From a virus: a stretch of 16,087 nt of DNA. The notes below the pieces were generated by a model. That model saw nothing but the letters and a program-made list of their open reading frames with translations, was not told the origin of the DNA and did not search any database. Each line of letters opens with the position of its first letter. The first letter of the stretch is position 1. Location of the stretch: the UHGV virus genome UHGV-0126759. One strand, written 5' to 3'. Below are positions 1,145-15,668 of this stretch, one piece after another. A program made the translations under genes and the position numbers.

Positions 1145-1353
1145 TGAACTTACGTTGGCCGATCGCAGCTGCTGTGTTGTTCTGTATTTATATCGCCGTC
1201 AGTACCAGTACCCGCACTGCAGAACGTCGCGAGACCGCAACCAGTACGTTCAGAATGTGTATTGATCGAGTAGACCCGAACAATAGCACTTATCCCGACG
1301 CGGTGAACGCGTGTCGCAAAGCGGTTGCTGAGATATTGAAAGAGGAAAAATAA
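1144..1353 (+). CDS. Small protein (69 aa) with N-terminal hydrophobic segment, probable membrane anchor or signal peptide
   Basis: N-terminal stretch WPIAAAVLFCIYIAVSTS is hydrophobic. GGGGGA Shine-Dalgarno-like sequence upstream; start overlaps the upstream stop and its TAA overlaps the next ATG (TAATG at 1351-1355). Confidence 0.5.
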   Translation: MNLRWPIAAAVLFCIYIAVSTSTRTAERRETATSTFRMCIDRVDPNNSTYPDAVNACRKAVAEILKEEK

Positions 1354-3113
1354 TGGAAAACCTTACGCCGATTGAGATAGTGGCGCTATTCGACCGTTAC
1401 GTATATGGACAAACGCAGGCAAAGAAAATGCTGGCGATTGCGCTACGTAATCGATATCGTGCCAACAAACTCAACGTTGTGGACCGTATGTCGGTCCACA
1501 AACAGAACCTTTTAATAGAAGGTCCAACAGGCACGGGTAAAACGGCGTTGATGCGGGTACTGAAAACTAAATTCGGTTTACCTGTGCTGGAACTCGACAT
1601 GACCGCGTTTACAGAATCGGGCTACGTAGGCCGGGAAGTTACATCAATCGGCAAAGACTTAGCCGACTTAGCGCGTTCTGTCGAATTGCCCGACTGGTAT
1701 ATCGAACTGCGTACCAAACGTCGTGTCGAGACGGAAGTAGACGGTAATCGTCTTACTCGTGAAGAGTGGGAGCGTGAATCCCGTAAGGAAGTTGAACGCG
1801 AACTAGACGAGCGCGCAGCTGAGCGCCAGCTGCGGTATCAAGCTAAACGTGATCACACCGAACTATTACGGCGTCAGGGTATACTCGATCCGAAGGAGTT
1901 GTACGAAGAATACCAAGACATCTATTGTCTTCGCGCGTTTATGGTTGGCTATTGCCGTCAACACAATTTAACCTACGAAGACTTCGATATCTATTCCGTT
2001 ACACTCGGTGGTCGTACTGTGCAAGAATGGATAGATAAGATGTCGGAAATCGCAAGGGGTCTGTTCGGTGTCTCGTCAATTTCTGAACTGTTAAATAGTG
2101 AAGAATTTGAAAGCCAGATTGATAAGCTAATGTGCGGAGAAATACCGGACACGATTGGGTATATGGGTGAGATTATGTCGCTGATGGCTTTAGGCGAACA
2201 GATTGACTTATACGTTGATGCTGGTCAAAAGTTGATGTCGAATAACCTTCCGCTCTCATGTGCCGATGGCTCAGACTTCTACGATTTGTTCGACACGTTT
2301 AACGGCGACGACGAGGACGTCGAGCCGGCGGGCATCAATTGGTTCCCGATCGACGGTGCAGCGTTTACTATTCGCATGTTGTCTCGTTTGGAAGATCCTG
2401 AGAAGTGGTGTCGTTGGTGGGATGACGTGTTCGAAGGTTCTCCAGAATTCACCAAATACGCCGATGAACGGCTCTGGCATTACGAGATACCTGAAACAGT
2501 TGCACCAGAAAAAGAAACAGTCAGTCGCAAAGACCTCAAGAAACTACCCAACTGTAATGGACATGATTTCGTTGAGAACTTTGCGGTAGTGTTCCTGGAT
2601 GAGTTTGACAAACTTATCGAGGTTGATACACAACACTCTGCACGTGTATCCCGTAGTGGTGTGCAGCGCAGCTTGTTGAAAATGGTTGAAGGGGGTATTT
2701 ATCATGGCGTTGACACAACCAATGTGCTTTTTGTCGCTGCTGGGTCGTTTGCTCAAGCGCCTGTTTCTAAACTCATGGCAGAACTCCAGGGACGTTTTCC
2801 GTTAAGAGCGAAAATGTCTTCGCTGGACACCGAGGCACTGATTGCTATCTGTAAGTTGGATAACAGTGAGTTCCACGGCATGATTAAGTTGTTGAAAACC
2901 GAAGGGGTGGAAACGCAGTACGACATGGACACTTACACGTTCATCGCTGAGAAAACAATGGAAGCCAATGCTGTAGAGAACCTTGGTGCTCGTCGATTGG
3001 CGGATATTGTTCATCAGATCTTCTTACCTGCGTCTTACGACTCTTCGAAATATAAGCAATACGACATACGTGGTGAAACACTGCGTGGTCACGCTTGGTC
3101 AGAGAACGCGTAA
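1353..3113 (+). CDS. HslU/ClpX-family AAA+ unfoldase-like ATPase (586 aa) with an expanded insertion (I) domain
   Basis: Seen in sequence: Walker A GPTGTGKT (aa 57-64, nt 1521-1544), pore-loop GYVG (aa 90-93), Walker B VVFLDEFDK (aa 412-420, nt 2586-2612), SRSGVQRSLLKMVEGG box, LQGRFPLRA (Arg-finger region) and sensor-2 ENLGARRL. The N-terminus LTPIEIVALFDRYVYGQTQAKKMLAIALRNRYR is collinear with HslU as I recall it (MTPREIV...[21 protein letters not shown]). AGAGGA Shine-Dalgarno 8 nt upstream. Confidence 0.8.
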   Translation: MENLTPIEIVALFDRYVYGQTQAKKMLAIALRNRYRANKLNVVDRMSVHKQNLLIEGPTGTGKTALMRVLKTKFGLPVLELDMTAFTESGYVGREVTSIGKDLADLARSVELPDWYIELRTKRRVETEVDGNRLTREEWERESRKEVERELDERAAERQLRYQAKRDHTELLRRQGILDPKELYEEYQDIYCLRAFMVGYCRQHNLTYEDFDIYSVTLGGRTVQEWIDKMSEIARGLFGVSSISELLNSEEFESQIDKLMCGEIPDTIGYMGEIMSLMALGEQIDLYVDAGQKLMSNNLPLSCADGSDFYDLFDTFNGDDEDVEPAGINWFPIDGAAFTIRMLSRLEDPEKWCRWWDDVFEGSPEFTKYADERLWHYEIPETVAPEKETVSRKDLKKLPNCNGHDFVENFAVVFLDEFDKLIEVDTQHSARVSRSGVQRSLLKMVEGGIYHGVDTTNVLFVAAGSFAQAPVSKLMAELQGRFPLRAKMSSLDTEALIAICKLDNSEFHGMIKLLKTEGVETQYDMDTYTFIAEKTMEANAVENLGARRLADIVHQIFLPASYDSSKYKQYDIRGETLRGHAWSENA

Positions 3114-3254: not shown

Positions 3255-3587
3255 ATGAAGAAAGTTTTAGTTCTGTTAGGCGCACTCGTTACGCCTATGG
3301 TTGTCCACGCTGCGGACAAACCACTCTTACTCGACCAGGATGTTTACGAACGTGTATTCCTGGAATGCGCTAAAACGTTTAACGGACCACAGAAGACAAC
3401 CTTTAACGATTTGGACGAAGCGTTAGAGGTCTGCCGTGACACTGCAAAAGAAATCGCGGTACGTCAAGGAACCCTCAAAATGGCGGTGGGAAGCAACTGG
3501 GAAGAAGTGCAGGTGATGGAAAAACCGGGTTACATGGTCGACCTGAACGCTAAGTTGATGCGTGAAGAAAAACAGAAACAAAAGTGA
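3255..3587 (+). CDS. Small secreted or periplasmic protein (110 aa) with Sec-type signal peptide
   Basis: N-terminus MKKVLVLLGALVTPMVVHA followed by ADK has the classic n-h-c signal-peptide layout with an AXA-like cleavage site (VHA/AD). The mature part is charged and ends in a Lys-rich tail (EEKQKQK). Confidence 0.6.
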   Translation: MKKVLVLLGALVTPMVVHAADKPLLLDQDVYERVFLECAKTFNGPQKTTFNDLDEALEVCRDTAKEIAVRQGTLKMAVGSNWEEVQVMEKPGYMVDLNAKLMREEKQKQK

Positions 3588-3595
3588 GGTAAAGG

Positions 3596-4597
3596 ATGAC
3601 GAAGCTCGTTTCGTTTTCAGCAGGGTTGGATTCCACCTGGATAATGTATCAACTGTTGTGCAAAGCACCGGCCAATGAAGCGCGACATGTCCGTCCTGCA
3701 TATTTCTCCATGTGGAATGGAGGTAACGCGAACTTCATGGAAATTCTTTGTAGTGTGGCCATTGTTGAACGGCTAATGGACAGATACCACGCACAAACCG
3801 ATCGCGTTACATGGGCGGTGCTCGGGGAAGAGAACTTTCCGCCTGTCGTTAGCGCCGGATACGCTAACGGCTGGTCGCCTCTGGTTCAGCAAGGCAATGT
3901 TGTTAACGGCCTCGCTAAACTGATGTGCGACATTACACGCAAACAGCACCACGCCTATGCAGTTGTTGGCTGGAATAAGCTAGATGCGTTGGAGAATAGT
4001 CTAGAGCTGGGAGATTGGACATTAGACGAGTACGCACGCTTAAAGAACCTTTATAGCGAACTGATGTATTTCCAAGATCATGCCGGTCGCGTTCCGCCGC
4101 TTCTAACACCTGCGTGGGATAAAGAGAAACTGGAAATGTGGCAGGAGTTGCCGGAAGACATTCGTAGATTGGTGCAGGTCAGTAACTACAACAACTACGA
4201 ATTCGCGATAGACCGTGAGAATAACGTGCTCATCGTGTATGCCCATCCGTCGGCAAAGTCGCAGAATTATCGTAGTCTTGGTATTACACCGTCTGTGGGA
4301 TGGGAGATTAAAATCAACGATGCTTACAGACGGGTATGGTGTTCTGCTCTCGGTAGTGCTATTTCTGCTATGGGTTTGGACGTACCGACTTTTGCTAACT
4401 TTAAGGACCCGAAAAGAAATCACACAACCTTTACGGTAACTGAAGATACTGAAAGACTATTTATCACGTCATTTACAGCAGAAGAGTGGTGCGAATATGC
4501 ACCGCATTTTAAAGCGCTTCAGGAGAAAGAAAAAGAGAGAGCGAAAAATGCCAAAGCAAGTAAAGCTGGACGCTCCAACTGGCGAAGTGGCGGATAG
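3596..4597 (+). CDS. Divergent PP-loop (ATP pyrophosphatase)-like protein, 333 aa
   Basis: N-terminal strand-loop-helix KLVSFSAGLDSTWIMYQLL resembles the SGGxDS PP-loop signature of QueC, TilS and NadE-type enzymes, but with Ala replacing the second Gly. No C-terminal Cys cluster as in QueC. GAGGT Shine-Dalgarno upstream. The family call is motif-based only. Confidence 0.55.
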   Translation: MTKLVSFSAGLDSTWIMYQLLCKAPANEARHVRPAYFSMWNGGNANFMEILCSVAIVERLMDRYHAQTDRVTWAVLGEENFPPVVSAGYANGWSPLVQQGNVVNGLAKLMCDITRKQHHAYAVVGWNKLDALENSLELGDWTLDEYARLKNLYSELMYFQDHAGRVPPLLTPAWDKEKLEMWQELPEDIRRLVQVSNYNNYEFAIDRENNVLIVYAHPSAKSQNYRSLGITPSVGWEIKINDAYRRVWCSALGSAISAMGLDVPTFANFKDPKRNHTTFTVTEDTERLFITSFTAEEWCEYAPHFKALQEKEKERAKNAKASKAGRSNWRSGG

Positions 4598-4611
4598 CTG
4601 AAAAACGGAAT

Positions 4612-4929
4612 TTGCCAAAGCTGGATATAACAGTTAAGTCGGGGCTGAAATATTTGGCACCCGACTGGGACTTTCTGATGGACTACAAGAAGTCTGACAA
4701 AGGCCCCGACGCAGAAGCTGCGTATACCAAACGCTACCTGCAGAAACTTAGTCGGTTGTTTGATGAAGACACTGATAAGTTGATAGAGATTCTCCGCCAG
4801 GGCGAGGTCGTACTAATGTGCTATTGCCCACCGGGGAAATTCTGTCATCGCCACTTGCTAGTTTCTTACCTTATTGAAATCGGTGAGTGGTTCGGTTATG
4901 AAGTAATTTACATGGGCGAGTTATCGTAA
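4612..4929 (+). CDS. Small Cys/His-motif protein (105 aa), possibly DUF4326-like
   Basis: C-terminal motif LMCYCPPGKFCHRHLL (C-x-C-x5-C-H-x-H) resembles, from memory, the CWCxPxxCHxDVL signature of DUF4326 proteins. The start is TTG at 4612 with a weak Shine-Dalgarno; an alternative ATG lies at 4678. Confidence 0.45.
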   Translation: MPKLDITVKSGLKYLAPDWDFLMDYKKSDKGPDAEAAYTKRYLQKLSRLFDEDTDKLIEILRQGEVVLMCYCPPGKFCHRHLLVSYLIEIGEWFGYEVIYMGELS

Positions 4930-4940
4930 GGAGAGTCATC

Positions 4941-5336
4941 GTGAAATTGATTATGCCTAAAACCGTTCCCAATCAGGATATGGTTACGACTACACTGTTT
5001 TCTGAATCATTACGTAACTCTGTACGTCAGACCGCTTCACGTCTAGACGTGGCAGTTGAAGAACTCGACCCAGAAGTCTTCATGAAGTATGCGTTTATTG
5101 CAGAAGGTTACGCGATCGCCCTGAGTTATGCGCGGTATGTCGATGACGTGACAGAAGCTAAACGTTATTTAGAAGGCTGTTGTCAAGTTTTCCGTGAAGA
5201 AATCACCGAGATGGAGATGGTTGACCGTGGCTTACCTGAATTTGTAAAGGTGGGTTACGATAAGCTGTTGCAATCCATCGCGGATGAGATCAAACGTCGC
5301 GGGTTAACTGTGGTGCACAGCTCTACACTGCACTAA
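4941..5336 (+). CDS. Hypothetical protein, 131 aa
   Basis: GTG start 7 nt downstream of an AAGGAG Shine-Dalgarno (4928-4933); its TAA stop at 5334-5336 is followed directly by terminator T1. Confidence 0.55.
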   Translation: MKLIMPKTVPNQDMVTTTLFSESLRNSVRQTASRLDVAVEELDPEVFMKYAFIAEGYAIALSYARYVDDVTEAKRYLEGCCQVFREEITEMEMVDRGLPEFVKVGYDKLLQSIADEIKRRGLTVVHSSTLH

Positions 5337-5350
5337 CACCGTACGAGTAG

Positions 5351-5390
5351 GCTACCACACGATCATATGTGTGGTAGCTTATTTTTTTTT
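5351..5390 (+). terminator. Rho-independent terminator T1
   Basis: Perfect 10-bp stem GCTACCACAC (5351-5360) and GTGTGGTAGC (5369-5378) with 8-nt loop, followed by TTATTTTTTTTT (5379-5390). Sits between the stop of the 4941-5336 gene and the start of the next gene. Confidence 0.8.
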
Positions 5391-5406
5391 GTTTCTGGAG
5401 GAAATT

Positions 5407-7356
5407 GTGACGACGAAACCTATAATCCGCAACTTTGCCGAGTTGGTCGAATATACTACAGAGACAATGCTAACCTTGGATCTTCCTGAGGTCTACGACC
5501 CGAGTGTAAGTCTGTCCGTAGATCAGAATGTAGACTACGATTATATCGGGGTCGTGACGGGAAAAAGCAACGTTACCAACCCCACAAACCACAAAGTGGT
5601 AATGTATGCTTACACCACCGGGGAGTATTTGCTAGGTGAAGCCCCTCTTGATGCCTCAGGGGCGTTTTCTTTTAAACGTACGTGGGCCGGTGCTAAACAG
5701 TTTAGACTAATCAATATATCAACTGGAGAGTGGATTACAACCCTGGAATTTCCTCTATGTATACGCAGTTACTTAATGCCCAGCGACGCCGAACCTGATG
5801 TTATCAAGGTAATGAAAGATCGATGTTACACGTACGATCAGGCGGTGGCAGCTTTAGCACTAATGGCTATAGATCACGGAGCCGTTGAGAAATATGTTAA
5901 AGGGCTTTGTGCTTTAGTGGACACAGACGGTGGTATTAAGTTTTATGTAAATCGTTTGTCTGCCAAGTCTCCACGTAACTATTATCGGATGGGCAATGTG
6001 GCATGGGTATTATACGCCCTTGCTTTTTACCTAGAGAAATATCCAAACGGCACCTTAGTTGGTCAAGTTAGGAGTAAGCTCACTCTTTCGCTCAGTTGGG
6101 TTGAAGGATTCCGTGTTAGCGATGTAAACGATAGGAGATACGGCTTATATCTCGGGGGTAAAGGCCGCTTTATTACAAACCCTGATGGTACGCAAACGTT
6201 CGATGAAAATTATGTAGCACCGTTCTCGGCCTTGGAACATTGTGTTGATTTGTGGTTTTTATTCGAGATATTGGGAAGGGTTGGATTTGATAGCTACGCC
6301 GCGAAGGCGATAGAGTTAGGCAATCTAATTTTAGACAAGTTTTGGATAGAAGAAGAGGGTCGATTGCGTCAAGGCGTTAGAGCCGATGTCGATGACGACG
6401 CTGCCGCTTTAGACCAGTCAAGCTGGGGTGGATTGTTTATCGCTAAGTTCAAACCGGAGCTGGCTTCGCAGTGTCACAGCTACATGGAAAAGTTTCGAGC
6501 AGTAACGTCCGAATGCAGCGGTTACACACCTTATAAGGTTGAATTGGGTTATCCGACTGCGGTCGACGGCGTTTGGGTTGAAGGAACTGCCGGTGTTGCC
6601 TTATTTGAAAGACAATTAGGGAACGATACTAGGGCAATTGAACTAATTAATAATATCGATGTTCTCCTGGGTGAACACGGTTATCGCGATTCGTGCGATG
6701 ACCCAACTTACGACACTTTACCTAATTGGCCGTCGACAACAAATACCGCCTGGGTGATTTTGGCCTGCGTACCAAGCGGCTTTTGGTTAGTTGATAAACC
6801 TGCACTGAATGCAAAATACAGCCCCCCTAATCGTTTTACACCTGACCTTAGATTAGACTCCAAGGGCCTCGTTGTGGCGTTAATTAATCACGATAACGGA
6901 TTGTCATTATCGCCTGACGAGATTGTAATAAGCGGAGTGGGGCCTATCGACTTAGGTGTTGAAAGTACCCGTACCGCACAAGCGTACATTGCAAAAGCAC
7001 GTAAACCTAACGGCAAGAAGGTTACCGTCTATTACGACCGTCTAGTTGCTAATAAGATTATCGACCCGCAAGGACCGATACTGGTTACTGTAGCTCCCGG
7101 CGACACCTATGCTGATTTAGCGACAGTTGTAAACCAGTTATGCGGTTTAAACTTGTCACGTGAAGACATCTCGACGGGGGTTATTACACCAACAAACGAG
7201 CCGTTGATTGCACCGATGAGTGACGATTCGCCGGCTTGGACGGCTACCTTTACATTCACGGCGTTTAATGAAAAAGAAGCTGTGGCAAGTCTGGATGAAG
7301 AAACTGTTTTATGCATCGGTGATGATGCAGTGTTAACCTACGGAGACGATGCATAA
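5407..7356 (+). CDS. Large hypothetical protein (about 649 aa from GTG 5407); aromatic-rich, possibly a helical-repeat carbohydrate-active enzyme with a C-terminal beta-rich domain
   Basis: The ORF track starts at 5371, but that would run through the terminator stem and T-tract; GTG at 5407 is in frame and lies 6 nt after a GGAGG Shine-Dalgarno (5396-5400). Helix-pair segments such as YDQAVAALALMAIDHG and NVAWVLYALAFYLEKYPNG resemble (alpha/alpha)-toroid glycosidase or lyase folds, which is an inference. Stop TAA overlaps the next ATG. Confidence 0.65.
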   Translation: MTTKPIIRNFAELVEYTTETMLTLDLPEVYDPSVSLSVDQNVDYDYIGVVTGKSNVTNPTNHKVVMYAYTTGEYLLGEAPLDASGAFSFKRTWAGAKQFRLINISTGEWITTLEFPLCIRSYLMPSDAEPDVIKVMKDRCYTYDQAVAALALMAIDHGAVEKYVKGLCALVDTDGGIKFYVNRLSAKSPRNYYRMGNVAWVLYALAFYLEKYPNGTLVGQVRSKLTLSLSWVEGFRVSDVNDRRYGLYLGGKGRFITNPDGTQTFDENYVAPFSALEHCVDLWFLFEILGRVGFDSYAAKAIELGNLILDKFWIEEEGRLRQGVRADVDDDAAALDQSSWGGLFIAKFKPELASQCHSYMEKFRAVTSECSGYTPYKVELGYPTAVDGVWVEGTAGVALFERQLGNDTRAIELINNIDVLLGEHGYRDSCDDPTYDTLPNWPSTTNTAWVILACVPSGFWLVDKPALNAKYSPPNRFTPDLRLDSKGLVVALINHDNGLSLSPDEIVISGVGPIDLGVESTRTAQAYIAKARKPNGKKVTVYYDRLVANKIIDPQGPILVTVAPGDTYADLATVVNQLCGLNLSREDISTGVITPTNEPLIAPMSDDSPAWTATFTFTAFNEKEAVASLDEETVLCIGDDAVLTYGDDA

Positions 7357-14446: not shown

Positions 14447-15250
14447 ATGTTAAAGCCACGCAAACAGAAAAGATTACAGTTTGTCAAAATACTGCATCCA
14501 CGATCACGCCGTGTCGTAGGCGGACGTCTCTACGTGGGTAAACACCGTAGTCGTCTTATCACCTGGTCGGCAATGGCCAACGTAGCCACCCAACTCCAGG
14601 CAATGGTTGAAGACCGTTGCCAGTTAAAAGGGGATTTCTTTCAAGAGAAGAAACCCTATCGTGATATCTTCCGTACACTAAAAGCGTGCTGGGTACTCAG
14701 CTGGGTGCCTGGCCGCGAACAACTTTATTTTCTGCGTAAGTTCCCACGCCCTATGCCGAAGGAAAACATTAGCGTTTTCTTAGACAAACTAAAACGCTTT
14801 AATGACATCGGCATAAACGCTAATAAAGAGCAGGTTTCTGCTACAGTAGCAGCCCGAAAACACTTACGCGATTATGTGGCCGATCGAGATGTTGAGTTCG
14901 CTTATATGACGCCGACTGTACCGCTGCTAAACGGTGATGCATTGAAAGCGAAGATGGAAGAGATCGCGTTGAAGTTTCCTAACATCAGACACATCGCACC
15001 AGACGCGGTACTACAGCTGAACACTGAAGGCTGCACGCGTTTACCGACAGTCTCTGACACGGTGTTAGTATCAACACCTGATGTTCCTGATGGAAAGTCG
15101 TTCCTTGAAATGATAAAGAAACGTACAGAGGGTGGATATCAACCGATCTTTCTGGATTCCCTTTCACAACATCCTGAAGTAGAACAAGAATTTAACATGA
15201 ACACTAACAGCCCTTACGACTCCCTATACAAGGACGATAATGATGCTTAA
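14447..15250 (+). CDS. Hypothetical protein, 267 aa, basic N-terminus MLKPRKQKRL
   Basis: TAAGGAG Shine-Dalgarno 8 nt before ATG; stop TAA at 15248-15250 overlaps the start of the next gene. Confidence 0.65.
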   Translation: MLKPRKQKRLQFVKILHPRSRRVVGGRLYVGKHRSRLITWSAMANVATQLQAMVEDRCQLKGDFFQEKKPYRDIFRTLKACWVLSWVPGREQLYFLRKFPRPMPKENISVFLDKLKRFNDIGINANKEQVSATVAARKHLRDYVADRDVEFAYMTPTVPLLNGDALKAKMEEIALKFPNIRHIAPDAVLQLNTEGCTRLPTVSDTVLVSTPDVPDGKSFLEMIKKRTEGGYQPIFLDSLSQHPEVEQEFNMNTNSPYDSLYKDDNDA

Positions 15251-15668
15251 GCCTAAGAAACGTAAAGATGGTGCGGTCATTTTCTCTCCGAGAATCGCTG
15301 TAGCAGTTGGTAAGAAATTACTGGTCCAGGACGGTAAGTGGGTCAGTGACGGATTCAGTCAGTACACCTCGCTATGCATGTCTTCCGAGATGAATCAGAT
15401 GCACGGGAAGAAAGTACGTGACCGACGATCTCAGATGCCAAAAGTTATCCGTGTTGTGGCCGGCTGGTATAAGCGATACATGAAAAAGAACTTCCCACAC
15501 GCAGCGCCGCCGTTTGAAGAAGGGTCTTTTGTTCGTACAGAACCCACCGAAGCGGGTGGCGAATTGCCGGTGCGTACCGGCACGGCGTATTCGACGCTGA
15601 CTTCCTTGTGTCGTCAGTCGTACGAAAAGCAGAAGGCGTTGAAGGACACTCTACTCCACATCAACTAG
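15240..15668 (+). CDS. Hypothetical protein, 142 aa, basic N-terminus MMLKPKKRKDG
   Basis: Tandem ATGATG at 15240-15245 lies 5 nt after an AAGGA Shine-Dalgarno (15230-15234) and overlaps the upstream gene by 11 nt. Followed by terminator T3. Confidence 0.6.
   Translation: MMLKPKKRKDGAVIFSPRIAVAVGKKLLVQDGKWVSDGFSQYTSLCMSSEMNQMHGKKVRDRRSQMPKVIRVVAGWYKRYMKKNFPHAAPPFEEGSFVRTEPTEAGGELPVRTGTAYSTLTSLCRQSYEKQKALKDTLLHIN

What the first reader, a model, noticed from the sequence alone, without database searches (positions are those of the whole stretch)
3596..4597. Divergent PP-loop-like ATPase (SAGLDS in place of SGGxDS) of unknown reaction
Seen in sequence: the protein begins with a strand-loop-helix KLVSFSAGLDSTWIMYQLL that matches the position and pattern of the PP-loop ATP-pyrophosphatase signature SGGxDS at the N-terminus of QueC, TilS and NadE-type enzymes, but with Gly-to-Ala at the second position. 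The remaining 300 or so residues show none of the QueC Zn-binding Cys cluster. Established knowledge: PP-loop enzymes adenylate a substrate carboxylate or carbonyl, and QueC-like proteins occur both in 7-deazaguanine DNA-modification pathways and in some anti-phage systems. Inference: this may be a nucleic-acid or nucleotide-modifying enzyme used for self-protection or host manipulation. Its position in the same operon as the HslU-like ATPase and a small Cys/His protein is notable.
Basis: partly seen in the sequence, partly recalled or inferred. Interest (0 to 1): 0.55.

Follow-up and report, generated by a model that had tools for sequence, protein, structure and literature searches.

The report
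Jumbo-phage QueC-like PP-loop enzyme
This gene of a Salmonella jumbo phage encodes a real but very divergent relative of the ATP-splitting enzyme QueC; it keeps the ATP-binding core, has lost QueC's zinc site and substrate pocket, and its substrate is unknown.

Summary

The Ala-for-Gly change is not a family trait. The family motif is [ST]-x-G-x-[DE]-S, with Gly at position 2 in 31 of 44 members.

The family is small and was found only in jumbo phages. It keeps the positions that align with QueC's ATP-side motifs (S8, G10, D/E12, S13, E49, D130, P172, K178). It lacks the Zn cysteine cluster and the QueC and Cap9 substrate motifs. It also carries a C-terminal domain of about 140 residues with no match among solved structures.

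No neighbouring gene travels with it across the family. The HslU-like ATPase is missing from SPN3US, and the DUF488 neighbour is adjacent in one clade only.

Best reading: a stand-alone ATP pyrophosphatase that adenylates a substrate other than 7-carboxy-7-deazaguanine. This is a new variant of a known kind, of moderate interest.

The parts
3596..4597 (+). Gene for the 333-aa PP-loop protein, homologue of SPN3US gp119 (SPN3US_0119 / ACQ60_gp147); phrog_8825
3586..3590 (+). Shine-Dalgarno-like GAGGT upstream of the ATG; overlaps the stop codon of the upstream ORF
   Evidence: read from the sequence
3617..3634 (+). PP-loop S8-A9-G10-L11-D12-S13. Family pattern is [ST]-x-G-x-[DE]-S, with G10 and S13 invariant in 44 of 44 members
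3740..3742 (+). E49 (Glu in 41 of 44 members, Asp in 3). HMMER aligns it with the Glu of the Cap9 F-x-Q-x5-E motif
3887..3898 (+). Q98-Q99-G-N101 at the start of helix 3, where I place QueC's VPxRN by eye. Q98 is invariant; the Arg of RN is absent
   Evidence: the correspondence is inferred
3968..3994 (+). G125-W126-N-K-L-D130-A-L-E133 after strand 4. G125 is invariant; W126 and D130 are each in 42 of 44 members. D130 lines up by spacing with the Asp before QueC's YPDC; YPDC itself is absent
4109..4141 (+). P172-A-W174-D-K-E-K178-L-E-M-W182. This is the P...K motif that HMMER aligns (sub-threshold) with Cap9 APLLDWHK and QueC TPLMWLNK. P172 and K178 are invariant
4172..4594 (+). [not shown]
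4256..4285 (+). K221-S-Q-N-Y225-R-S-L-G229-I230 in the C-terminal domain. K221 is invariant; Y225 is in 34 and G229 in 40 of 44 members
4564..4569 (+). Site of a 2-nt deletion relative to SPN3US (CTGTGG becomes CTGG). It replaces the last 11 residues (VDAPTGEVADS becomes GRSNWRSGG) and cuts off the annotated start of the overlapping DUF488 gene
4612..4929 (+). Context only: DUF488-N3a protein carrying the CxCPxGxxCHRH motif. Adjacent to the PP-loop gene only in the Seoulvirus / Machinavirus / Wellington-like clade
5345..5384 (+). Context only: terminator-like hairpin (17-pair stem followed by a T run) that probably ends the transcription unit containing 3255-5336

Best explanation
The gene encodes a stand-alone enzyme of the PP-loop ATP-pyrophosphatase class. 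It descends from the QueC branch and is inherited within nucleus-forming (chimallin-type) jumbo phages.

Shown here:
- The N-terminal ~190 residues form the five-stranded Rossmann-like fold of QueC and Cap9.
- The pyrophosphate-binding loop S-x-G-x-D/E-S sits between strand 1 and helix 1.
- The other conserved positions that line up with QueC's ATP-side motifs are kept (E49, D130, P172...K178).
- The QueC Zn cysteine cluster is gone. So are the residues that hold 7-carboxy-7-deazaguanine in QueC and Cap9 (YxQxH, the Arg of RN, YPDC).
- They are replaced by family-specific invariant residues (Q98-Q99, W126, E133, W174) and a new C-terminal domain carrying an invariant Lys (K221).

Inferred: the protein binds ATP-Mg and attacks the alpha-phosphate with a carboxylate or carbonyl oxygen of its substrate. 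This releases PPi and forms an acyl- or enol-adenylate, which an amine then resolves in a ligase or amidotransferase-type reaction. The substrate is not 7-carboxy-7-deazaguanine.

Weak lead: the acidic pI, the absence of Cys and of any RNA-binding module, and a recurrent position among nucleotide-metabolism and replication genes point to a small nucleotide- or nucleobase-like molecule. It needs no dedicated partner gene.

For: Sequence: the family profile against the PDB gives Cap9 E 1.7e-5, QueC 2e-3, TilS 2.6e-3 and LarE 7e-3. hhalign of the family against PS119XW gp244 gives probability 98.3%, E 1.2e-14, over residues 2-193. That protein scores 43 bits on Pfam QueC (cut-off 22) and has a CxxCxxC cluster.

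Conservation: G10, S13, Q98, G125, P172, K178 and K221 are invariant in 44 members that share as little as 14-20% identity.

Distribution: 46 cluster representatives among 1.84 billion proteins. None was found in 185,579 species genomes. Of 12 IMG/VR loci, 11 lie on contigs of 233-287 kb and one on a 66-kb contig. Phages EL, Miami, AhC3_1, SA002 and the Erwinia jumbo phages carry it.

No obligate partner: local clustering of neighbourhoods in 15 loci.

Context: thymidylate kinase is adjacent in EL. RNase H is adjacent and DNA ligase nearby in AhC3_1. dCTP deaminase and NAD ligase lie near the PS119XW homologue. DHFR is nearby in Miami.

Other: median pI of the family is 5.85, with no conserved Cys.
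Against: - No biochemical data exist, so ATP hydrolysis is inferred from motifs only.
- The window protein has no Pfam hit, and its best NCBIfam hit is noise.
- In 16 of 44 members the motif Asp is Glu, which is unusual for PP-loops and could change the chemistry.
- I could not superpose coordinates. The correspondences with QueC's VPxRN and YPDC rest on my own spacing argument. Those for E49 and K178 rest on HMM alignment, sub-threshold for K178.
- The nucleotide-metabolism context is loose synteny within a conserved virus family. It is not operon evidence.
- The C-terminal domain gives no clue to the substrate.
Confidence: 0.68

Rival explanations
1. It is a protein-modifying ligase of the Cap9 / QatC type. 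It would adenylate a small acid and join it to the N-terminus or a side chain of a phage or host protein. It could also interfere with host type IV CBASS or QatABCD, which depend on such enzymes.
For: Cap9 is the closest solved structure and the best sequence hit. QueC scaffolds have been converted to protein ligases at least twice. The new C-terminal domain could be a protein-docking surface. The acidic pI fits a protein-binding enzyme better than a nucleic-acid-binding one.
Against: The motifs that contain Cap9's deazaguanine-contacting residues (R86 in RN; Y115 and D117 in YxDC) and its Zn site are not recognisable in the family. None of the three adjacent proteins starts with the MG(G/T)S motif of CD-NTase or QatB; they start MKKVLV, MPKQVK and VKLIMP. 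No partner gene is conserved across the family. Syntenic, vertical inheritance across jumbo phages of five host genera looks more like a housekeeping gene than an accessory counter-defence gene.
Confidence: 0.12
2. It is a working QueC that makes preQ0 or ADG for 7-deazaguanine modification of phage DNA.
For: JGI names one homologue '7-cyano-7-deazaguanine synthase'. Weak sub-threshold QueC hits occur in a few members. QueC is the second-best structural match.
Against: The Zn motif C(x)8CxxCxxC is absent. So are YxQxHxxE (apart from the Glu), VPxRN and YPDC. Tyr35, Arg99, Tyr131 and Tyr189 of E. coli QueC are individually essential. The SPN3US annotation lists no folE, queD, queE, or DpdA/TGT gene. 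It lists only two generic radical-SAM proteins and a lytic (SLT) transglycosylase. The window protein has no Pfam QueC hit.
Confidence: 0.04
3. It is an RNA-modifying PP-loop enzyme in the manner of TilS, ThiI, TtuA or NcsA, acting on a phage or host tRNA.
Against: The C-terminal domain shows no THUMP, TilS C-terminal or other RNA-binding fold. No Cys is conserved for persulfide or Fe-S chemistry. The family is acidic, with median pI 5.85. QueC and Cap9 score higher than any tRNA enzyme in both structure and sequence.
Confidence: 0.08
4. It is a non-catalytic nucleotide-binding or purely structural protein that keeps the fold but not the chemistry, like universal stress proteins.
Confidence: 0.08

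Closest known systems
Cap9 (type IV CBASS QueC-like protein deazaguanylase; PDB 9nto)
   Different: Cap9 is a 181-191 residue protein with a structural Zn site (CE(x)6CxxCxxC). It keeps the QueC substrate residues (RN, YxDC) and is encoded next to its CD-NTase substrate in bacterial defence operons. The phage protein has no conserved Cys and none of those residues. It carries an extra C-terminal domain of about 140 residues, has no conserved partner gene, and was found only in jumbo phages.
QueC, 7-cyano-7-deazaguanine synthase (Pfam PF06508; PDB 3bl5, 2pg3)
   Different: The window protein is below the Pfam threshold. There is no Zn cluster and no YxQxH, VPxRN or YPDC. No queD, queE or folE is annotated in SPN3US.
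Jumbo-phage 'QueC-like' proteins such as PS119XW gp244, Ralstonia phage RSF1 and Pseudomonas phage Noxifer
   Same: Profile-profile probability 98.3% over residues 2-193. Also encoded by large phages (223-322 kb), on the same strand among hypothetical genes, with replication or nucleotide-metabolism genes within a few kb.
   Different: Those proteins pass the Pfam QueC threshold (43 bits), are about 245 aa long and keep a CxxCxxC cluster. The SPN3US-type family has replaced that region with a Cys-free domain. The function of those proteins is also unknown.
QatC (QueC-family protein of the QatABCD defence system)
   Same: Another QueC scaffold whose canonical substrate motifs were replaced by family-specific ones while the PP-loop was kept, and which gained terminal extensions.
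   Different: QatC keeps a variant Zn motif. It forms an obligate complex with QatB, whose MGTS N-terminus is essential, and it sits in an operon with an ATPase and a TatD nuclease. None of these features is found here.

Membership tests
PP-loop ATP pyrophosphatases / adenine-nucleotide alpha-hydrolase superfamily | Rossmann-like alpha/beta/alpha fold with five parallel strands | tested here: met
   [not shown]
PP-loop ATP pyrophosphatases / adenine-nucleotide alpha-hydrolase superfamily | SGGxDS (SxGxDS) pyrophosphate-binding loop between strand 1 and helix 1 | tested here: met
   SAGLDS at residues 8-13 in the coil between strand 2-6 and helix 11-23. Family consensus is SGGLDS, with G10 and S13 invariant.
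PP-loop ATP pyrophosphatases / adenine-nucleotide alpha-hydrolase superfamily | Cleavage of ATP to AMP + PPi through an adenylated substrate | not testable with these tools
   Needs an enzyme assay.
QueC family (Pfam PF06508) | Score above the Pfam gathering threshold | tested here: not met
   The window protein has no Pfam hit. Among 12 close members, one reaches E 0.023. AhC3_1 scores 18 bits against a cut-off of 22.
QueC family (Pfam PF06508) | Zn-binding C(x)8CxxCxxC motif | tested here: not met
   No conserved Cys column in the 44-member alignment. Motif as defined.
QueC family (Pfam PF06508) | Substrate motifs YxQxHxxE, VPxRN and YPDC | tested here: not met
   Only the Glu (E49) and the Asp before YPDC (D130) have conserved counterparts. 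The corresponding positions carry QQxN and E-x-S instead. Motifs as defined.
QueC family (Pfam PF06508) | Genomic association with queD, queE, folE or a DpdA/TGT transglycosylase | tested here: not met
   None is annotated in the 240-kb SPN3US genome. The two radical-SAM proteins hit only the generic Pfam models. This rests on annotation and was not an exhaustive HMM search.
Cap9 / QatC protein deazaguanylases | Adjacent substrate protein (CD-NTase or QatB) with an MG(G/T)S N-terminus | tested here: not met
   The adjacent proteins start MKKVLV (signal peptide), MPKQVK and VKLIMP. No partner is conserved across 15 loci. Motif as defined.
Cap9 / QatC protein deazaguanylases | Residues that hold the deazaguanine (Cap9 R86, Y115, D117) and the structural Zn site | tested here: not met
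   The RN and YxDC motifs and the Cys cluster are absent from the family alignment. Coordinates were not superposed.
tRNA-modifying PP-loop enzymes (TilS, ThiI, TtuA/NcsA, MnmA) | Appended RNA-binding domain and, for thiolases, catalytic Cys or an Fe-S cluster | tested here: not met
   [not shown]

The most novel reading that the evidence does not exclude
Nucleus-forming jumbo phages carry their own QueC-derived ligase. It has lost deazaguanine chemistry and, using its novel C-terminal domain, conjugates a different small molecule to a phage or host macromolecule. This would be a virus-encoded counterpart of the Cap9 and QatC nucleobase-protein conjugation recently found in bacterial immunity. 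It might serve infection or counter those defences.
Probability: 0.12. Interest if true: 0.8.

Novelty: new variant of a known kind. Interest (0 to 1): 0.45.

Why it matters
In 2025-2026 QueC-family scaffolds were shown to have been rebuilt into protein-modifying enzymes in two bacterial anti-phage systems, type IV CBASS (Cap9) and QatABCD (QatC). This family is a third, independent rebuilding of the same scaffold, and this one is on the virus side. It has no Zn site, has new invariant residues around the ATP pocket, and has a domain with no match among solved structures. The 2026 survey of PF06508 does not describe it, because its members fall below the Pfam threshold.

It was found in at least five jumbo-phage lineages, with hosts in Salmonella, Erwinia, Klebsiella, Pseudomonas and Aeromonas. 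Finding its substrate would assign a function to a recurrent 'hypothetical' gene of these phages and could reveal new adenylation chemistry. If it turns out to be an ordinary small-molecule amidotransferase, the result is of modest interest.

Tried and rejected
- Pfam, NCBIfam and single-sequence PDB searches of the window protein gave nothing usable. Only family profiles and the predicted structure were informative.
- Functional link to the HslU-like AAA+ ATPase: rejected. SPN3US has an unrelated 161-aa gene there. SA002, pEa_SNUABM_37 and PS119XW have no homologue next to their PP-loop gene. The ATPase more plausibly pairs with the phage HslV-like peptidase. Its RAY homologue is an accessory protein that localises to the phage nucleus.
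- Obligate pairing with DUF488: rejected. The small ORFs downstream in AhC3_1 and pEa_SNUABM_37 are unrelated to DUF488. DUF488-N3a occurs in 290 phage records, and in phiLBG22 it lies about 66 kb from the QueC-like gene.
- The ORF upstream as a Zn or Cys/His partner: rejected. It is a signal-peptide protein.
- Foldseek against AFDB50 was not available.
- Search for cellular homologues in 185,579 genomes found none. It was limited to two peptide patterns.
- Literature searches for SPN3US gp119, PP-loop or QueC in jumbo phages, and DUF488 function gave nothing specific.
- The search for related loci with the 44-member alignment failed for lack of a conserved stretch.

Full report
**What the window is.** The 16-kb window is 95-98% identical to SPN3US-like Salmonella jumbo phages of the genus Seoulvirus. 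SPN3US encodes a homologue of the nuclear-shell protein ChmA, which places it among the nucleus-forming jumbo phages. All large ORFs lie on the + strand. The finding's ORF, 3596-4597, encodes 333 aa. It matches phrog_8825, function unknown. It is 99% identical over residues 1-309 to SPN3US gp119 (SPN3US_0119 / ACQ60_gp147), annotated 'hypothetical protein'.

**Check of the observation.**
- The sequence begins MTKLVSFSAGLDSTWIMYQLL, and a GAGGT ribosome-binding site precedes the ATG.
- Pfam gives no hit for this protein, and single-sequence search of the PDB gives only noise.
- I collected 17 homologues and aligned 12 of them (A1). An AlphaFold2 model built on that alignment has mean pLDDT 83 and pTM 0.86.
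- In the model, residues 2-6 are strand, 7-10 coil and 11-23 helix.
Neither is met.

**The family and the motif.**
- An exhaustive profile search of 1.84 billion cluster representatives found only 46 proteins at E up to 1e-3.
- In a 44-member alignment with identities to the window protein as low as 14-20%, the invariant residues are M1, G10, S13, Q98, G125, P172, K178 and K221. E49, W126, D130, W174 and G229 are at 90% or more.
- The motif pattern is [ST]-x-G-x-[DE]-S. Position 2 is Gly in 31 members, Ala in 7, Ser in 3, Cys in 2 and Thr in 1. Position 5 is Asp in 28 and Glu in 16.
The Cap9 paper itself describes the conserved motif as SxGxDS.
- With the broad profile, sequence alone now reaches the PDB: Cap9 E 1.7e-5, QueC 2e-3 and 4.7e-3, TilS 2.6e-3, nitrile synthetase 6.6e-3, LarE 7e-3.
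- The same search also gives sub-threshold second alignments of the family's 'PlWdmtKkemW' to Cap9 'APLLDWHKPDIY' and QueC 'TPLMWLNKAETW'.
- A bridge to bona fide QueC-family proteins exists in other jumbo phages. Pseudomonas phage PS119XW gp244 (245 aa) scores 43 bits on Pfam QueC (cut-off 22) and carries CETPTNEKHCGKCKPC. It aligns with the family profile at 98.3% probability (E 1.2e-14) over residues 2-193.

**What is kept and what is lost relative to QueC.**
- A 2026 study defines canonical QueC by five motifs: SGGxDS, YxQxHxxE, VPxRN, YPDC and the Zn motif C(x)8CxxCxxC. Tyr35, Arg99, Tyr131 and Tyr189 are individually essential.
- Cap9 keeps these motifs in variant form. QatC replaces them but keeps a Zn motif.
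- In the phage family, the PP-loop, the Glu after strand 2 (E49), the Asp five residues after the strand-4 Gly (D130) and the P...K motif (P172, K178) are conserved.
- The Zn cysteines are gone. So are YxQxH, the Arg of RN and YPDC. QQxN and E133-x-S135 occupy the corresponding positions.
- E49 and K178 rest on HMM alignment, sub-threshold for K178. D130 rests on the hhalign alignment to PS119XW gp244 plus spacing from the strand-4 Gly. The equivalence with VPxRN is my inference from sequence spacing. I could not superpose coordinates.
- No Cys is conserved anywhere, and the proteins are acidic, with median pI 5.85.

**Distribution.**
- tblastn finds the family in 68 phage records, listed under Salmonella, Erwinia, Escherichia, Proteus, Enterobacteria and Aeromonas phages.
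- Distant members lead to Pseudomonas phage EL, Klebsiella phage Miami, Salmonella phage SA002 and Erwinia pEa_SNUABM_37/48.
- Of the 12 IMG/VR loci, 11 lie on contigs of 233-287 kb and one on a 66-kb contig.
- A pattern-based scan of one genome per species (185,579 species) found no relative.
- The family therefore appears restricted to jumbo phages. It is not among the PF06508 clusters described in the 2026 survey.

**Surroundings.**

*Upstream ATPase.* The 586-aa ORF at 1353-3113 is an AAA+ protein with HslU/ClpB-type domains. A 141-nt gap with a hairpin separates it from the next gene.
- SPN3US has an unrelated 161-aa gene at that position.
- Phage 1252 has the window's layout. SPLA3 and MET_P1_082_240 carry both genes.
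- In Wellington-like phages the ATPase lies downstream of the PP-loop gene.
- SA002, pEa_SNUABM_37 and PS119XW have no homologue of it nearby.
- SPN3US encodes an HslV-family peptidase. The RAY homologue of the ATPase is an accessory protein that localises to the phage nucleus.
- The ATPase is thus a variable cassette with its own likely partner.

*ORF 3255-3587.* It has a Sec-type signal peptide (MKKVLVLLGALVTPMVVHA/ADK) and two cysteines.

*DUF488-N3a.* The ORF at 4612-4929 is a DUF488-N3a protein with a CxCPxGxxCHRH motif.
- It overlaps or abuts the PP-loop gene in the Seoulvirus and Machinavirus clades.
- It lies within 3.5 kb in Wellington-like phages.
- It is not adjacent in AhC3_1 or the pEa_SNUABM_37 group, and neighbourhood clustering found no DUF488 within 6 kb in EL or Miami.
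- DUF488-N3a occurs in 290 phage records, including phiKZ-type phages in which I detected no member of this family.

*No universal partner.* Clustering of neighbours across 15 loci found no gene shared by all.

*Transcription unit.* A strong terminator-like hairpin at 5345-5384 probably closes the unit.

*Wider context.* Across lineages the gene sits near replication or nucleotide-metabolism genes. These are thymidylate kinase in EL, RNase H and DNA ligase in AhC3_1, DHFR in Miami, and dCTP deaminase and NAD ligase near the PS119XW homologue. This is only loose synteny. The SPN3US annotation lists no folE, queD, queE or DpdA/TGT gene. Its two radical-SAM proteins hit only generic models.

**Mechanism.**
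- Shown: the fold, the position of the loop, and conservation of the positions that align with QueC's ATP-side motifs under strong divergence.
- Shown: loss of the Zn site and of the residues that contact deazaguanine.
- Shown: a family-specific domain, and no obligate partner gene.
- Inferred from the established chemistry of PP-loop enzymes (QueC, Cap9, NadE, GMP synthase, TilS): ATP-Mg binds at the loop. A carboxylate or carbonyl oxygen of the substrate attacks the alpha-phosphate and releases PPi. An amine then displaces AMP.
- The substrate is not 7-carboxy-7-deazaguanine.
- I favour a small nucleotide- or nucleobase-like molecule. The family is acidic, has no Cys and no RNA-binding module, and conserves Trp and Tyr residues that could stack on a ring. 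The nucleotide-metabolism context also fits. This last step is weakly supported.

**Rivals.**
- A Cap9/QatC-style protein ligase (0.12) is the most interesting alternative.
- A non-catalytic nucleotide-binding protein (0.08).
- A tRNA-modifying enzyme (0.08).
- A true QueC (0.04).

**Novelty and verdict.** The PP-loop call is correct and now rests on structural and profile evidence. The 'SAGLDS' oddity and the operon argument do not carry weight. The protein is not a member of the QueC family as defined, because Pfam threshold, Zn site and substrate motifs were all tested and not met. It is a derivative of that branch, and a new variant of a known kind. Interest is moderate (0.45). The family is phage-specific, recurrent in jumbo phages and undescribed, and QueC repurposing is a current topic. 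But nothing here yet points to unusual chemistry.

Noticed in passing
window 4564-4612: Relative to SPN3US, phage 1252, SPLA3 and MET_P1_082_240, the window lacks 2 nt (CTGTGG becomes CTGG). The PP-loop protein therefore ends GRSNWRSGG instead of the conserved VDAPTGEVADS (333 versus 335 aa). The overlapping DUF488 gene also loses its ATG and its first ~22 codons, including the conserved AKWR; only a TTG at 4612 remains as a start. The exact 333-aa form occurs on only 2 ENA contigs. This could be a real mutation or an assembly error.
   Followed up: yes
window 4545-4600; L008 6990-7060: The PP-loop gene's tail and the DUF488 gene's start overlap by 53-56 nt in different frames. The stretch TGGCGAAGTGGCGGA is identical between Salmonella and Erwinia phages whose proteins are only 33% identical. 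This is consistent with dual-coding constraint (GEVA in one frame, AKWR in the other).
   Followed up: partly
window 5371-7356: This 661-aa ORF joins a ~480-residue tail-fibre module to the conserved DUF7941 virion protein, which is only 177 aa in SPN3US. The module has no counterpart in any SPN3US-like phage in the collection. Its nearest relatives are a tail protein of an Stx2k phage (57%) and E. coli jumbo phage ph0011 (53%). This looks like a host-range module swap.
   Followed up: partly
window 1353-3113: The HslU-like AAA+ gene is a variable cassette. It is absent from SPN3US, which has an unrelated 161-aa gene there. It is present alone in the window and phage 1252. It is present together with that other gene in SPLA3 and MET_P1_082_240. 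SPN3US also encodes an HslV-family peptidase (gp001), and the Erwinia phage RAY homologue localises to the phage nucleus.
   Followed up: partly
window 3255-3587: A small protein with a clear Sec-type signal peptide (MKKVLVLLGALVTPMVVHA/ADK) and two cysteines. It is a predicted secreted or periplasmic phage protein of unknown role (phrog_10627).
   Followed up: no
window 5345-5384: A 17-pair hairpin followed by a T run. It is the strongest terminator-like site in the first 8 kb and lies between ORF 4941-5336 and the tail-fibre genes. It overlaps the mechanical GTG start at 5371, so the true start of the tail-fibre ORF may lie further downstream.
   Followed up: no
cluster of the window protein: The 335-aa form of this protein sits on contigs of ~238-243 kb in many NCBI assemblies labelled Salmonella enterica (serovars Enteritidis, Havana, Virchow, Heidelberg and others). 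Complete SPN3US-like phage genomes are therefore co-assembled with isolates, through a carrier state or contamination.
   Followed up: no
window 14447-15668: Two consecutive ORFs (267 and 142 aa) match only the N-terminal thirds of longer PHROG families (positions 1-138 of 423 and 1-126 of 306). They may be truncated or split genes.
   Followed up: no
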